64,000 nucleotides of DNA from the human T2T-CHM13v2.0 reference genome, Homo sapiens: NCBI RefSeq assembly GCF_009914755.1, contig NC_060934.1, one strand, 5' to 3'. Positions 16,889-49,850 of this stretch are shown in pieces. Both the position numbers and the translations under genes were made by a program. Position 1 is the stretch's first letter, and each line of letters begins with the position of its first letter. A model generated the notes under the pieces. It saw only the letters and a program-made list of their open reading frames with translations, was not told where the DNA came from and ran no database searches.

Positions 16889-19473
16889 GTGTTTCTCATT
16901 TTTAACATGAAGAGGAAATGAAATCACTTGCATGAATGATCTGTTTCATCCACTGACCATGAGTAGAGATCATCAAATATTGACAGAATGAGTAAGGGAA
17001 GGTAGTGTTGACCCACAGCACTGGGCACTCACCAGGCCCAGCAGTTTAAATTGTCAGGAGATGCCAGGAGAGTTGTGACAGCATTGGCTGCAGCAAAAGA
17101 GTCATTAGACTTGAGTTTAAAAGCTAGGAGTGTGAGGTCACTGCAGCTGTCTTAATATCCTAAATTAAAATCATATTAAGGCTTCATGAATGTTCCAGCT
17201 GCTTCTTAGTTGCCTTTGAGCTGCTGCATGAAGAATGGGAGGCCCTTGGGTTGTTTTTCGCAGGCTCCTGGCTTAGACTGGGCAGGAGAAGGCACAGCTG
17301 GGTGTGGCATGCACAGGGCCAAGGTAGGGAGACCAGAAACCTCACTTGGGAAACTTCATGGTCCAGAGACAGAATGTATCTCAGTACAAGGGCTGTTGCT
17401 TGTGTGGGGTAGATTTCCAAGATCTTTTAAAAGCCATCAATATAGAGGCTCCAGAGTCCCTGGACCATGATTATTTAAGTCATTTATTCGACATGAGGCT
17501 CCCTCTCCCGCCTCATCCAATTTACCCTCTGTCTTCTCTAGGTCAGCCTAGAAAGGAGGAACTGATTTTCTTTAAATAAATATGGGTTGCAGCTTATGAT
17601 GCAGAGGGTCTAAGGACGCTTGTGATTTCTCAGTCCCCTTGTAAGGTTTAGGTTTGGAACCGAATTAAAACACCAAAGGCAAGAAGTCTAAAAGGGAGAG
17701 ATGATTCCTGCTGATTCCTTCTGGCACCTGCAGTGCCTGTGACAATCTGCCCCACGGGGAGCCCATGCCACTGAGAGGGAAATGGTTCAATTCAGGACTG
17801 GTAAGAAATTGGGCTCATATACCAGCCATTAGGGAACTTTACTTGATGAGAAAATGAGAACCTTTTGTAGTTGCTAAAGAGAGCACCATTCTTAATTTGA
17901 CCTCTTCTTGGTCATGGGAGATGGGCACTTTATCGGAAACTCAAGTGCTCAGAGTAAGAAGAAAAAGGAAGCCGCTGGTGTGAGGAAGGGAGGCCAGCCG
18001 CATCTTATTCCCTTGTGTCCATGCTGTGTTCTTGGTGTGCGGTCCCTGGAGCAAGTGCAAGGAATAAGACAAAGACATCAGTGACTGTGTCTCCGATGGA
18101 CAGTGACGCTAGTCTTTTGTAAGAGCTACGATGGGACAACATGGGGATGCATGAGAGCTCTCTCATGAGCAGCAGACAAAAACTGTTTTCAGAGCAGGGA
18201 AATCTATATTGGCATTTGGCACAACATTTGAATTATTTGATGAACTAGATAAGGTCTGACATCCTTTTGGTCAGGTTGTTTGCCCAAGGTTTATACATGG
18301 GAACAGTCCAGTTAGACAAGTAGACTGAAGGGAAGTGGGATGAAGTTCAGAAGTGGGGTCTGGGTGGTTTGAGTTCTGCAACTTGATCCATTTTCAGTTG
18401 TTTGAGCTTGAACTATGTACTGTAACTTTTTGGACTTTATTTTTCTGAAAGATGAAACATGTTTCATAAATTTGATTTATAATCAGAATTGTTTCCAGGT
18501 CCAGGTATTATGAGTCCGTAATGATTTCCACTGCCCTAGACTCCCACCAAGGCACAGATTGGCTTCCAGAAAGTTGTTCTGATGATCTCCTCCCTCTAGG
18601 CAGCCAAAGAGCAGCTGCCAATTAATTCAGGGTTAACCGTGTCTATCTGCCTCTCTGGGGAGTGCTGTGGTGTGGTACACAGTTGACTTTATCAGGGCTT
18701 GTTACTTGACAATTTTGAAGGTGGAAAATGTGCTTTAGGACACCATGTATATTGGTCTAAACCACTGACTAGTTTAGTACTTGCAACAAATGGCCTTCAC
18801 AGACAACATTTGAAAGATGCGATTTTGCAGTAGCCAGGGAGAAAGCCCAAGTCTAGAAGGGAAGGAGAGCTTTGAGGGGGCTAGAGTGGTGGGGCGGAAT
18901 TGTTTAAAAGAAGAATTAGAGGAAAAAGAAACAAGAAACTTGCATGCATGCTACTTCCAATCCTGAGACTTTGTGATACAGAGCAGGGAATCAGCTTTAA
19001 TCTGAATGCCTACCAAAAAAGTGGGAGGATCACTCATAATACGAGTAAATTTCTCATATCTAAAACAATGCTCTTCTCAGTTACATGGAGACAGTCACTG
19101 TCAGAACTGAATGGAGTCAGGGTGGCTCTCTGGCCCCTTCCTTATAATCAAATAAAGGACACTTTTAGCAGCCTTAGCCTGTGTGGTAGATTTGTAGGGT
19201 AACTTGTTGGTGACTTTCATTTGAATTTCTTGATTACAAAAGAGGTCAATTACCTTTTTATTAATACATATTTACTGGCATTTAGGTTTCCACTTTGTAA
19301 AATGTCTGTTCAAGTCTTGAAAAAAATACTGAATTGTCTGAGTTTCTCATACTGATTTCTGAGGCTTCTTGATATATTCTGGATGTGAGCCCTTTGTTGG
19401 TTTTATGTGTTGGAAATAATTTCTGCTCTGTGGCTTCCATTTCCTTTCTCTTACTAGTATGTTTTGATAAACA

Positions 19474-20417
19474 GAAACTTTTAATTTGAATGTAATGAAT
19501 GTTACCAATCTTTTGCTTTATAATTAATGTTTTATAATTCTTTCTCACAAAGACAGTCTTCTGTACTATTTTGCCTTTTACATTTAGGTCTATAATCTGC
19601 CTGGAGTTGACTTTTGAGTATAGTGTGACGTAGAGGTCCACTTTAATTTTTTTCATATGGATATCAAATTGTCTCAGCTCTATTTGTTATCCTCCCCCAT
19701 GGATTGGCAGTGCTAGCTTTACAATAAATCAAGTGTCTATACATGCTGGGATTTGTTTCTTGGTTTTATATTCTGTTCCATTGGTCTATTTGTCTCTCTT
19801 TGAGCCAGTATATTGTGCTACATTTAATAACAGTTTTATTTTCTGATCTTAACAGCTAGCAGGAAAAGTACTCTATCTTGTTCAAGAGTTTCTTAACTAT
19901 TCTTGTCCTTTTGCTTTTTCATATAAAATTTAGACTTGCCTTTCAATTTACACAAAATATCTGTTGGGATTTTGCTAATGGTATTGCATTGAATCTATGG
20001 ATCATTTTAGCGAGAAAATTAGTATCTTTGCAATCATTGAGGCTTCCAATCCATGAACATCATGTATACGTAGCACAGTATACTGGCTCAAAGAGAGACA
20101 AATAGACCAATGGAACAGAATATAAAACCAAGAAACAAATCCCAGCATGTATGGACACTTGATTTATTGTAAAGCTAGCACTGCCAATCCATGGGGGAGG
20201 ATAACAAATAGAGCTGAGACAATTTGATATCCATATGAAAAAAATTAAAGTGGACCTCTACGTCACACTATACTCAAAAGTCAACTCCAGGCAGATTATA
20301 GACCTAAATGTAAAAGGCAAAATAGTACAGAAGACTGTCTTTGTGAGAAAGAATTATAAAACATTAATTATAAAGCAAAAGATTGGTAACATTCATTACA
20401 TTCAAATTAAAAGCTTC
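19474..20417. repeat. Near-perfect inverted repeat: 348-bp arms (19474-19821 and 20070-20417), 248-bp spacer
   Basis: Base-by-base comparison gives 345/348 identity, no indels (paired coordinates sum to 39891); the same peptide MKKIKVDLYV... appears on opposite strands in the ORF track. Confidence 0.97.
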
Positions 20418-20432
20418 CATTTACTTAGGTCT

Positions 20433-20549
20433 CTTTTTAACTTTTATTTTAGGTTCAAAGGTATATGTGCAGGTTTGTTACATAGGTAATCTGCATGTTA
20501 TGAAAATTTGGTGTACAGATTATTTTGTCACCCAGGTAAATGCATAGTA
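20433..20549 (-). mobile_element. Very short 5'-truncated old L1PA (PA15/16-like) with 11-bp TSD
   Basis: 'ttttaacttttattttaggttcaaaggtatatgtgcaggtttgttacatagg'; TACTTAGGTCT at 20422-20432 and 20550-20560. Confidence 0.88.
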
Positions 20550-21669
20550 TACTTAGGTCTTCTTTAATAGTTTCATAATTATGTGGTTTTATCCATGGAG
20601 GTCTTGAAGAAGTACTTGCTACTTTTGATGCAACTGAAAATTGTATCATTAAAAATTATTTTTTGTATATAGAAATACAATTATTTTTTATATATTGATT
20701 TTTAAAAAAAATGTAGTAGGCTTGCCGAATTCCATTATTAATTATAATAAACTAAGGATTTTAAAGGATTTTAAAATATAAACAATAGTATCATCCACAA
20801 ATAATGACAGTTTCATGTCTTCCTTTCCAATCCTTACACTATTTATTTATTTGCCTTATTGCACTGGCTAGGACCTCTTGTAAAATGTTCAATAGAAGTA
20901 GTGACAGTGGACATCATTGTCTTGTTTGCAATCTTAAAAATAAAACTCTCATAATTTTACCATTAAGCATAATGTTTGGTGAGAGTGTATATCCTTTATC
21001 AGTTTAGGGAAACTTCCTTCTATTTCTGGTTTATTACAACTTTTTCCTCCCCCCATCATGAAGGATGATGAATATTATCAAATGCTTCTTCTGTACTATG
21101 AAAAAAAGTCACTTAATTTTTTTTCTTTAATCTGTGAATGTGGTAAAATACATGGATTTTTCTAATGTTAAACCAACCTTGAATTCCTGCTCTAAACCCA
21201 ACTTGATCTATATTGCTGGATTTGGTGTGTTAATATTTGTTTAGGATTTTTATATCCATGTGAATGAGAGATTGGGATATGATTTTCTTTTATTGTACTG
21301 TATTTATCAGATTTTCATGATGAAGTTATACTAGCCTAATGAATTGAATATATAGCTACAGTGTTTTAGTTGTAATAGTCTTGCCAGGACACTGCTGTTT
21401 CTGCTAGATATTACCACTGCTACCACTGCTTTCGGATTCTAACTTTCTCTTGTTTATTTTCTCATTTGTTCCAGATTCAAAGTCCTGGGTGGAAGTATCT
21501 GATTGGTTGAGTAGACTATTGGGAGATGGTGAGAGGGAGGCTCAAGTTCTCTTGTTGTTTATGATTAGGAAGGGTATACTGCTTTCCAACAAGGCTGGTG
21601 CGTGTTGTATGCTATACAGATTGTCCTGTCTGCCTCTACCCAAAACCCCACAAATGTCCTGTACAATAA

Positions 21670-21996
<327 letters not shown>

Positions 21997-22038
21997 AGTA
22001 CAGTTATTCTTATGCTCATTAAAGATTAAGAACACTGT

Positions 22039-22531
<493 letters not shown>

Positions 22532-23853
22532 ATTAAGAACACTGAGTTGGACCAAAGGAAGGAATAAAAGAAAATGTATATACAGATTGACAGATTTTTG
22601 GGTGTTCACCCTGTTCTGCATTTAAGATAATCTGAAGTCCCTGGTAGTGAAGTTTGGAATTTGGGTAACCCAAGGGGTTCTTGCTTGCTTGCAGGATTTA
22701 CTCTATTTTAACTCAACATCACCCTCCGTAATCATCATCCTTAATACACATTAAAGCATTGGTGAGTTGTGAGGAGTTAGTGAAGTGATAAATGTGAAAG
22801 CACCATGCACACTATTCAGCACACAGTACCTGCTCAATAAATGATTGTTTTGAGTATTAAACTTCCTTGATAAATTCCACATACAATGGTGTTTTAAAAT
22901 GTTATACAGGAGAGCATGGCTGCTTGCATTTTCAAGTTGACTGCGCAGTGGAGCTAAACAGAAAATGCTGTCCCTCTTGCAGCCTTGGCCACTGGGCTTA
23001 GGATGCCTGGGACAGGTGAATCTTCTCTAATGGTCAGGTTCTAAGGTAGTTCCTAAGTTAAATTTGCATTTGAGATGCCACTGATTTACTTTTTACCACT
23101 AATTATTTTATGGATTTCAAACATGTTTGTCTTTAACTTTCTGTTTTTCAAAAATTATGAGAAGCTTATGTTTCCATTGCTCTTCCCAGGCAGGTGATTG
23201 ATTTTGGATGTATTTGTGATCTCCCCAGTTTCCATCATGGCTGGTTTGCATAAGTCCAGCCACACACCTGTGTATGATATGCCAGGGCATGCTCGAGGTG
23301 GGGGGGTCGGGTTTTTGTCCCCCTCCCTCCCCTACTCCACACCATTGTTAGTGATTCCCAGAAATCTGGTTATTTTTATGGTCTCAACAGAACAGTGTGT
23401 TCAGAAAACAGTAGATCCTGGAGTCTACATCTGGTATATAGAATCCTGGTGTAATCAAGAGCTTCAAGTCCTAAGTCTTTTAAGAGGGCTGCATCTTTAT
23501 TATTTTTTTCTCCAGATTTCTCTTCTAGCTGCCCAGGATCCTCTCAGCCTCTCATGAAGCCCTGGAGATAGAGCTCTTTATCTTCATCTCCATTGAAGAA
23601 CTGGAAATCACAGCACCCCTTAGGCATGGAGGTGTTAGTGTTCTGCTGTTTTAATTGTTCATGAAGTGATGATTGACCCATCCTGAATGTTCAGGGGGTC
23701 TCCCAGTGTGCCCCCTGAACAAAGGAAAATAGTTAATTTAAAGAGTTTTTGTTCATTTGTGAAGATTATTTATTTGGTTATTTTGGGCTCTCTTTTGCTT
23801 GTTCCTGTGATTATAAACATAGCATACATAATTATTAAATGAACACTGTCTCT

Positions 23854-24481
23854 CTTTTTTTTAACTTTTATTTTAAGTTCAGGGGTACATGTGCAGGTTT
23901 GCTACATAGGTAAACGTGGGGTTTACTGTACAGATTATTTCATCACCCAAGTATGAAGCCCAGCACCCATTAGTTATTTTTCCTGATCCTGTCCCTCCTC
24001 CCACCCCCCACCCTCTGATAGGCCCCAGTGTGTGTTGTTCCCCTCTATGTGTCCATGTGTTCTCATCATTTATCTCCCATTCGTAAGTGAGAACATGTGG
24101 TATTTGGTTTTCTGTTCCCATTAGTTTGCTAGGGATAATGGCCTTCAGCTCCATCCACGTCCCTGCAAAGGACATGATCTCATTCCTTTCTATGGCTGCA
24201 CAGAATTCCATGGTGTATATGTACCACATTTTCTTTATCCAGACTATCAGTGATGGGCATTTAGGTTGATTCCATGTCTTTGCTACTGTGACTAGGGCTG
24301 CAATGAACATACATGTGCATGTGTCTTTATAGTAGAACAATTTATATTCCTTTGGGTATATACCCAGTAATTGTATTGCTGGGTCAAATGGTATTTCTGT
24401 CTTTAGGTCTTTGAGGAATCACCACACTGTCTTTCACAATGGTTGAACTAATTTACACTCCCACCAACAGTGTATAAGTGG
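23854..24481 (-). mobile_element. 5'-truncated old L1PA with ORF2p C-terminal remnant
   Basis: ORF 23879..24340 contains FIAAL.TVAKTWNQPKCPS...WIKKMWYIYTME; TSD AATGAACACTGTCTCT/AATGAATACTATCTCT (23838-23853, 24482-24497). Confidence 0.92.

Positions 24482-46552: not shown

Positions 46553-46937
<385 letters not shown>

Positions 46938-47789: not shown

Positions 47790-49850
<2,061 letters not shown>

What the first reader, a model, noticed from the sequence alone, without database searches (positions are those of the whole stretch)
19474..20417. Near-perfect 348-bp inverted duplication inside an ancient L1 relic
Seen: 19474-19821 and 20070-20417 are reverse complements with only 3 mismatches (all transitions: 19477/20414, 19738/20153, 19813/20078), no indels and a 248-bp spacer. 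The host L1M is heavily decayed, so these cannot be two independent insertions. Removing arm 2 restores a collinear L1 read ('ccatgaacatcatgtata' + 'cttccatttacttaggtc'), so arm 2 is a locally templated inverted copy with almost no loss at the site. Inference: it arose by replication template switching (FoSTeS/MMBIR-like) and is either recent or kept homogeneous by arm-to-arm gene conversion. Possible consequences are cruciform/hairpin fragility, recurrent flipping of the spacer and, if transcribed, a ~350-bp almost perfect non-Alu dsRNA stem (potential ADAR, Dicer, PKR or MDA5 substrate).
Basis: partly seen in the sequence, partly recalled or inferred. Interest (0 to 1): 0.8.

Follow-up and report, generated by a model that had tools for sequence, protein, structure and literature searches.

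The report
Small inverted duplication in L1 relic
A 344-base piece of an ancient, dead LINE-1 element was copied backwards and inserted 248 bases downstream, a real but ordinary kind of small human DNA rearrangement with no sign of a function.

Summary
Positions 19474-19821 and 20070-20417 are ungapped reverse complements with 3 mismatches. In the whole T2T genome only these two copies match at 99% or more; the next best match is 71%.

The host is an antisense LINE-1 ORF2 relic. Minus-strand ORFs match human ORF2p residues 945-1069 and 804-833. Arm 1 and the spacer lie in their original place. Arm 2, best placed at 20070-20413 (344 bp), is an insertion: 13 of 17 independent L1 copies show a 335-368 bp excess there, and 4 of the 17 show one clean 345-bp gap with no host base lost.

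This is a "3-2-1-4" template-switch event in the four-point model. It also fits the "inverted duplication" class, the commonest inversion-type variant in 1,019 long-read human genomes (277 events, median 284 bp; PMC12350158).

- **Age:** arm divergence suggests a few million years, with a wide interval of 0.4-25 My.
- **Recent origin or gene conversion:** this cannot be settled, because no primate genomes were available.
- **Fragility:** the 248-bp spacer argues against strong cruciform fragility.
- **dsRNA role:** no transcript is annotated over the locus, so this is unsupported.

Verdict: a genuine, probably neutral new member of a known kind. Interest is low.

The parts
19326..21315 (-). 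Host: decayed LINE-1 ORF2 relic. L1 sense is on the minus strand. The coordinates are the minimum extent shown here.
   Evidence: The minus-strand ORF 19285-19686 matches human L1 ORF2p residues 945-1069 (E 2e-12). ORF 19946-20059 matches residues 804-833 (E 0.003). Collinear blastn matches to other genomic L1 copies run from about 19366 to 21315.
19478..19821 (+). Arm 1: the source segment, in its original place in the host L1 (19474-19477 possibly included).
   Evidence: It is collinear and in the same orientation as its left flank and the spacer in other L1 copies (L003, L005, L007). The ORF2p alignment runs unbroken across its outer edge.
19822..20069 (+). Spacer of 248 bp: host L1 sequence in its ancestral orientation.
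   Evidence: It matches other L1 copies at 71-78% in the same orientation as arm 1, and ORF2p residues 804-833 on the minus strand.
20070..20413 (+). Arm 2: inserted reverse-complement copy of 19478-19821 (344 bp, 2 mismatches).
   Evidence: Ungapped comparison. It is absent from other L1 copies: 13 of 17 show a net excess of 335-368 bp, and 4 of 17 show a single clean 345-bp gap with 0 bases lost. No other copy at 72% or more exists in the genome.
20414..20417 (+). Ambiguous 4 bp at the outer junction. It is either the first bases of the resumed host L1 or the end of the copy. Three of the 4 bases fit both, so this may be 3-bp microhomology.
   Evidence: mismatch at 20414, matches at 20415-20417; other L1 copies continue with the equivalent bases directly after the left flank.

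Best explanation
This is a one-step, locally templated inverted insertion. While the + strand was being synthesised, during replication or during repair of a break, the growing 3' end stopped after base 20069. It switched to a template of opposite polarity 248 bases behind it, either its own nascent strand folded back or the complementary strand. It copied 344 bases backwards (19821 down to 19478) and then returned to the original template at the very next base. [quoted passage not shown] This is type '3-2-1-4', which creates an inverted repeat. The product is an inverted duplication with a 248-bp spacer inside an old LINE-1 ORF2 relic. It was probably made within the last few million years and is probably neutral. 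Shown here: the structure, the local origin, which arm is the copy, and the absence of loss at the target. Inferred: the polymerase mechanism, the age, and the neutrality.
For: - Arms are 345/348 identical, or 342/344 on the refined boundaries, with no indels.
- Whole-genome search with arm 1: only the two arms reach 99% or more. The next best of 40 scored matches is 71% over 235 nt; the highest for any piece is 89% over 62 nt.
- Arm 1 and the spacer are in-place L1: ORF2p residues 945-1069 and 804-833 on the minus strand, collinear, plus collinear blastn matches to other L1 copies.
- Arm 2 is the insertion: 13 of 17 L1 copies give a 335-368 bp excess at the site. L012, L018, L010 and L014 give one 345-bp gap with zero bases missing from the L1.
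- There is no target-site duplication: the only k-mer of 4 or more shared by the 30-nt flanks (CTTCCA) lies 22 bp from the junction. Neither end of arm 2 has an A or T run. This excludes retrotransposition.
- No other young duplication lies within 9000-31000 and no other near-perfect IR lies in the window. The event is simple, with two junctions.
- Literature read in passages. Type 3-2-1-4 with its mirror creates an inverted repeat and makes up 31% of high-confidence human-chimp events (PMC5453318). Patterns 1-4-3-2 and 3-2-1-4 are the majority in great apes (PMC7954356). Inverted duplications are the commonest class among 733 non-MEI inversions in 1,019 humans: 277 events, median 284 bp, with a replicative origin suggested (PMC12350158).
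Against: - The left junction has no microhomology: 20069 does not pair with 19822. The right junction has 0-3 bp. In PMC12350158 most inverted duplications have 1-15 bp.
- No pre-existing quasi-palindrome is visible that could have nucleated the switch.
- At 344 bp copied from 248 bp away, the event is larger than the 'short' template switches the published scans were built for (search space +/-100 nt in PMC7954356).
- Two of the three mismatches lie within 10 bp of an arm end. My hand calculation gives about 1% under uniform mutation, but the test is post hoc. That pattern also fits conversion of the interior, or error-prone synthesis just after the switch.
- Polarising the mismatches with 23 other L1 copies was inconclusive: 19738 gave T 9, C 5, A 1; 19813 gave T 4, C 2, G 1.
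- 4 of 17 L1 copies gave deviant excesses of 195, 256, 278 and 506 bp.
- Three minus-strand ORFs to the right of the insertion gave no ORF2p match.
- No orthologous or population data were available, so the ancestral empty site is inferred from paralogous L1 copies only.
Confidence: 0.8

Rival explanations
1. The inverted duplication is old (tens of millions of years). Its arms are kept nearly identical by arm-to-arm gene conversion, or by repeated template switching between the arms.
For: Two of the three mismatches sit within 10 bp of the arm ends. Conversion tracts that homogenise the interior better than the edges would produce this. Template switching between IR arms is described as homogenising arms and inverting spacers (abstract of PMC8604942, search listing).
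Against: The edges of homology are sharp to within 4 bp on both sides, with no zone of eroded similarity beyond them, and the host L1 resumes immediately. The arms are short (344 bp). Other inverted repeat pairs in the same window have diverged normally to 71-85%. Recent origin needs no extra process, and polymorphic events of this size are common in living humans (PMC12350158).
Confidence: 0.1
2. The locus is a functional or consequential long-hairpin RNA source (ADAR, Dicer, PKR or MDA5 substrate), or a fragile or inversion-prone site under selection.
For: If transcribed, it folds into an uninterrupted stem of about 344 bp (RNA MFE -650.8 kcal/mol for 19440-20450). On the + strand both internal mismatches become G.U pairs. 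It meets the sequence criteria of the 'long, highly paired' class (over 300 bp and over 96% paired) in PMC11838218.
Against: The hub gene table shows no transcript over the locus; the nearest lncRNA ends at 2964. No Rfam family matches 19000-21000 at E up to 1. The same paper reports that 88% of the 2,018 such structures are intergenic, 74% are unedited, and most are inverted LINEs, attributed to lack of transcription. The locus was not found in the held supplements of PMC12695637. Lengthening the spacer from 12 to 100-200 bp cuts IR-driven recombination or rearrangement 20- to 300-fold in yeast (PMC10164571).
Confidence: 0.05
3. Assembly artefact, or a private rearrangement of the CHM13 cell line, not a feature of human genomes in general.
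For: Only one assembly was available. Fold-back chimeric reads are a known long-read artefact (my recollection, not a call).
Against: The copy carries 2-3 substitutions relative to its source. It has a 248-bp spacer and sits precisely within a collinear L1 with no loss. Read-level fold-back artefacts would be expected to be spacerless and identical (recollection).
Confidence: 0.03
4. Arm 2 arrived by the L1 machinery (twin priming or retrotransposition of a local transcript), or the whole 944 bp is a foldback-type transposon.
For: The host is an L1. A separate 117-bp L1 3' end with an 11-bp target-site duplication lies only 8 bp beyond arm 2.
Against: Arm 2 lies outside that target-site duplication. 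It has no poly-A tail and no duplication of its own. It is the same L1 segment as arm 1 at 99% identity, whereas independent L1 copies are about 70% alike. A twin-priming inversion made when the old L1 inserted would have diverged by now. Arm 1 and the spacer are collinear host L1, so the unit is not an inserted element.
Confidence: 0.02

Closest known systems
Template-switch mutations of the four-point model, type 3-2-1-4 (Loytynoja & Goldman 2017, PMC5453318; Walker et al. 2021, PMC7954356)
   Same: [quoted passage not shown] No pre-existing perfect repeat is needed.
   Different: Size and distance. Here 344 bp is copied from 248 bp away. The published scans target clusters of a few tens of bases and search within about +/-100 nt. 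This event is a pure insertion: point 4 directly follows point 1.
Inverted-duplication structural variants in human populations (1,019 long-read genomes, PMC12350158)
   Same: An insertion whose sequence is an inverted copy of adjacent sequence. The size is typical (344 bp against a median of 284 bp). A replicative origin is proposed for the class.
   Different: Most catalogued events have 1-15 bp of microhomology. Here there is none at one junction and 0-3 bp at the other. Whether this locus is polymorphic or fixed is unknown. It was not found in the held (truncated) supplements.
Long, highly paired predicted dsRNAs (dsRNAscan, PMC11838218)
   Same: Stem over 300 bp and over 96% paired, formed by inverted LINE sequence, and intergenic. 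That paper counts 2,018 such structures in the human genome.
   Different: As I read that paper, those mostly pair two separate inverted LINE elements. Here both arms come from one element by local duplication. Its tables were not held, so I could not check whether the locus is listed.
Large palindromes and inverted repeats kept alike by gene conversion (Y-chromosome and X-linked type; recalled, no call)
   Same: Arm identity of about 99% with a unique spacer.
   Different: Those arms are kilobases to megabases long and carry genes, and conversion was shown by cross-species comparison. Here the arms are 344 bp of dead L1 and conversion is untested.
L1 twin-priming 5' inversions (mentioned in PMC12350158, 1,047 events)
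   Same: An inverted segment inside an L1.
   Different: Twin priming inverts a different, adjacent part of the same RNA at the time of insertion. Here the same segment is present twice, and the copy is about a hundred-fold less diverged than the host element.

Membership tests
Four-point template-switch mutation, type 3-2-1-4 | The novel fragment is the reverse complement of nearby sequence on the same molecule. | tested here: met
   342/344 (345/348) ungapped; no other source in the genome above 71% over a comparable length.
Four-point template-switch mutation, type 3-2-1-4 | The switch points lie in the order 3 < 2 < 1 < 4 on the ancestral sequence. | tested here: met
   Coordinates 19478 (3), 19821 (2), 20069 (1), next host base (4).
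Four-point template-switch mutation, type 3-2-1-4 | An ancestral state without the fragment, shown by a closely related genome. | not testable with these tools
   No primate genomes were available. The surrogate is 17 paralogous L1 copies, of which 13 show a 335-368 bp excess in the window.
Four-point template-switch mutation, type 3-2-1-4 | Short range: events of tens of bases, with the template within about 100 nt. | tested here: not met
   344 bp copied from 248 bp away. PMC7954356 uses a +/-100 nt search space.
Inverted-duplication SV class | Inserted sequence is an inverted copy of adjacent sequence, hundreds of bp in size. | tested here: met
   The class median is 284 bp.
Inverted-duplication SV class | Microhomology of 1-15 bp at the breakpoint junctions (most members). 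| tested here: inconclusive
   Left junction 0 bp. Right junction 0 bp, or 3 bp if the copy ran to 19474.
Inverted-duplication SV class | Segregating in human populations. | not testable with these tools
   Coordinate prefixes were not found in the held, truncated supplements of PMC12350158. The GRCh38 prefixes were derived from a recalled BUB3 position, so this negative result is weak.
L1 twin-priming inversion | Inverted and direct parts are adjacent, different parts of one L1 RNA, of equal age, and lie inside one target-site duplication. | tested here: not met
   The same segment is present twice at 99%, whereas L1 relatives are about 70% alike. No flanking duplication around arm 2.
Foldback or long-TIR transposon | The whole unit is an insertion, and further copies exist elsewhere. 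| tested here: not met
   Arm 1 and the spacer are collinear host L1. Only this locus matches at 99%.
Long, highly paired dsRNA (over 300 bp, over 96% paired) | Sequence able to form such a stem. | tested here: met
Long, highly paired dsRNA (over 300 bp, over 96% paired) | Both arms transcribed on one RNA. | not testable with these tools
   The hub table lists no transcript over 19474-20417. No expression data were available.
Conversion-maintained palindrome | Arms more alike within a species than between species. | not testable with these tools
   No orthologous sequences were available.

The most novel reading that the evidence does not exclude
The inverted repeat is older than its 0.6-0.9% arm divergence suggests. 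On this reading it is kept homogeneous by arm-to-arm conversion or repeated template switching, its 248-bp spacer flips recurrently in human populations, and read-through transcription yields a 344-bp near-perfect non-Alu hairpin. That hairpin would feed ADAR or Dicer, or trigger MDA5, when the region is derepressed. It would be a young hairpin-RNA locus born by template switching, as has been proposed for new miRNAs (PMC10710096, seen in the search listing and abstract only).
Probability: 0.05. Interest if true: 0.5.

Novelty: new member of a known kind. Interest (0 to 1): 0.2.

Why it matters
As it stands it matters little. It is one clean, sequence-resolved example of a small inverted duplication, useful as an illustration in three ways:
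- Template-switch events extend well beyond the tens of bases that current scans look for.
- The decayed L1 background allows the copy and the source to be told apart without an outgroup.
- Both junctions can be placed to within 4 bases.

If the locus proved polymorphic, flipped its spacer or were transcribed, it would be a convenient natural test case for how the genome tolerates a long, perfect, non-Alu hairpin. Nothing seen here points that way.

Tried and rejected
Pfam on 15 stop-to-stop ORFs of the locus then gave nothing significant: best E 0.02, below the cut-offs.
- **Two younger-looking L1 loci (L029, L030)** were fetched to obtain Pfam L1 domains. They had no long ORFs. Of 21 L029 ORFs scanned, only an unrelated rve integrase domain matched, so this route was dropped in favour of phmmer against solved ORF2p structures.
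- **ORF2p search with three ORFs** to the right of the insertion found no match.
- **Rfam** over 19000-21000 at E up to 1 found no match.
- **Polarising the mismatches** with 23 L1 copies was inconclusive.
- **Low-penalty gapped alignments** fragmented the insertion gap and were replaced by a stiffer gap-opening cost. The script stopped with an index error after three loci, and I used its partial output.
- **Supplements:**
  - The dsRNAscan tables are not held.
  - The locus is not in the held supplements of PMC12350158 (the only hit is an unrelated chr12 Alu).
  - The locus is not in the held supplements of PMC12695637.
- **Retrotransposition, twin priming, foldback transposon and independent L1 insertions** were considered and rejected (see rivals).

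Full report
**1. The observation**

The repeat finder reports one long inverted pair at 19468-19826 / 20065-20423 (359 nt, 98%). Positions 19474-19821 equal the reverse complement of 20070-20417 except at 19477/20414, 19738/20153 and 19813/20078. All three differences are transitions and there are no indels. Similarity collapses at once beyond both ends.

Among the 11 inverted pairs of 100 nt or more (within 5 kb) in the 64-kb window, this is the only one above 85%. The other ten are 71-85%. Between 9000 and 31000 no direct repeat of 40 nt or more exceeds 91%, and those found are Alu-like or L1-end pieces. The event therefore stands alone.

**2. Where the arms come from**

The window's own genome is held (G000; the window is C10:124062001-124126000). 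A search with arm 1 scored 40 of 580 candidates. Only the two arms reach 100% and 99%. The next best is 71% over 235 nt, and the highest identity for any piece is 89% over 62 nt. The spacer is single-copy at 100%, with the next match at 78%. Arm 2 was therefore copied from arm 1, or the reverse, and not from another repeat copy.

**3. What the host is**

Pfam found nothing significant in 15 stop-to-stop ORFs of the locus. phmmer against solved structures did:
- The minus-strand ORF 19285-19686 matches human LINE-1 ORF2 protein residues 945-1069 (E 2e-12; entries 8sxt and 8uw3).
- The minus-strand ORF 19946-20059, in the spacer, matches residues 804-833 (E 0.003).

The two matches are collinear on the minus strand, so the host is an antisense LINE-1 ORF2 relic. 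The first alignment runs unbroken across the outer edge of arm 1, which shows that arm 1 is in place. Pairwise identity to other genomic copies is about 68-78%, so the element is old. I did not test the subfamily name 'L1M'. Three ORFs to the right of the insertion gave no ORF2p match.

**4. Which arm is the copy, and what was lost**

blastn of 17000-23000 against 25 other L1 loci shows arm 1, the spacer and the sequence from about 20660-20800 onward collinear in one orientation. Arm 2 matches the same L1 segment as arm 1 in the opposite orientation.

I aligned 17 L1 copies across 19900-20760 with a stiff gap-opening cost:
- 13 of 17 show a net excess of 335-368 window bases between 20030 and about 20425.
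- The other four give 195, 256, 278 and 506.
- Four of the 17 (L012, L018, L010, L014) show one clean gap of 345 bases at 20068/9-20412/3 with zero bases missing from the L1 copy.

The printed junctions show these copies running straight from the equivalent of the left flank into the equivalent of the bases that begin at 20414.

It also moves the outer boundary. The host resumes at 20414, so the copy is best read as 20070-20413 (344 bp, 2 mismatches), and 19477/20414 is an edge effect. The alternative is that the copy ran on to 19474 and returned through 3 bases of microhomology (20415-20417), which needs one later transition. At the inner junction there is no microhomology, because 20069 does not pair with 19822.

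The 30-nt flanks of arm 2 share only CTTCCA, which lies 22 bp from the junction, so there is no target-site duplication. Neither end of arm 2 has an A or T run.

**5. Mechanism**

In the four-point description of template switching (PMC5453318, passages read), the points fall at 19478 (3), 19821 (2), 20069 (1) and the next host base (4). This is type 3-2-1-4. With its mirror it 'creates an inverted repeat' and makes up 31% of high-confidence human-chimp events. In great apes the patterns 1-4-3-2 and 3-2-1-4 are the majority (PMC7954356).

Either a switch within a replication fork or snap-back of a resected 3' end on its own strand would give exactly this product. The sequence cannot tell them apart, and this step is inference.

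The event is larger than those scans were designed for (+/-100 nt search space). It is typical of the 'inverted duplication' class of structural variants. In 1,019 long-read human genomes that class is the commonest among 733 non-MEI inversions: 277 events with a median of 284 bp, mostly with 1-15 bp of microhomology, and a replicative origin is suggested (PMC12350158, passages). The lack of microhomology at one junction is the main point on which this locus departs from the typical member.

**6. Age**

Divergence is 2/344 or 3/348. Using recalled human mutation rates of 0.5-1.0e-9 per site per year, this gives point estimates of 2.9-8.6 My. Exact Poisson limits span 0.4-25 My. The event could be human-specific or shared with other apes.

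Two of the three mismatches lie within 10 bp of an arm end. Under uniform mutation that has roughly a 1% chance by my hand calculation, but the test is post hoc. It shrinks to one of two mismatches if 19477 is an edge. The pattern could mean conversion of the interior, error-prone synthesis just after the switch, or nothing.

Polarising the mismatches with 23 other L1 copies was inconclusive: T 9, C 5, A 1 at 19738, and T 4, C 2, G 1 at 19813. Without orthologous primate sequence, recent origin and conversion cannot be separated. I favour recent origin for three reasons: the edges of homology are sharp, the arms are short, and neighbouring inverted repeats have diverged normally.

**7. Consequences**

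The stretch 19440-20450 folds into one uninterrupted stem. The free energy is -650.8 kcal/mol as RNA and -425.7 kcal/mol as DNA. On the + strand the two internal mismatches are G.U pairs.

It meets the sequence criteria of the 'long, highly paired' dsRNAs (over 300 bp and over 96% paired). dsRNAscan counts 2,018 of these in the human genome. Most lie between inverted LINEs, 88% are intergenic and 74% are unedited, which the authors put down to lack of transcription (PMC11838218, section 10 read). Its tables were not held.

Three results argue against an RNA role:
- The hub's table lists no transcript over the locus.
- Rfam gives no match.
- The locus is not in the held supplements of a study of MDA5-relevant dsRNAs (PMC12695637).

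For DNA fragility, passages of PMC10164571 state that widening the spacer from 12 to 100 bp lowers IR-induced recombination 300-fold, and widening it from 12 to 200 bp lowers rearrangements about 20-fold in wild-type yeast. Widely spaced repeats do interact once the DNA is single-stranded. A 248-bp spacer therefore argues against strong cruciform fragility. Flipping of the spacer by recombination between the arms is possible but untested. In this assembly the spacer is in the ancestral L1 orientation.

**8. Verdict**

The structural part of the interpretation (a local templated inverted copy with no loss) is supported. The functional suggestions have no support. The locus is a new member of a known and common kind of small rearrangement.

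Noticed in passing
window 20422-20560: Only 8 bp beyond arm 2 lies a separate, older insertion. It is a 117-bp, severely 5'-truncated L1 3' end (20433-20549, antisense, short T-run at its left end) flanked by an 11-bp target-site duplication, TACTTAGGTCT, at 20422-20432 and 20550-20560. It matches the terminal part of other L1 copies at 77-82%. L003 and L008 show the same element terminus next to unrelated flanks. L012, L026 and L014 show it as a 123-129 bp gap. Two insertions have therefore hit the same 20 bp of the host L1. I take this as coincidence and did not test that.
   Followed up: partly
window 23858-23913: Another L1 3'-end piece, 91% identical over 56 nt to 20434-20489 and in the same orientation.
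   Followed up: no
window 21742-21878 / 22168-22304 and 46631-46823 / 47852-48044: Inverted repeat pairs of 137 nt (83%, 289-nt spacer) and 193 nt (85%, 1028-nt spacer). From the Alu-like repeat units seen these look like ordinary inverted Alu pairs. They serve as a local yardstick for how far independent inverted repeats have diverged.
   Followed up: no
L029 6636-7175 (G000:C23, fetched for comparison): A 180-aa open frame with a retroviral integrase core domain (rve, E 2.9e-13) next to an L1 fragment on chromosome X. It is unrelated to the finding.
   Followed up: no
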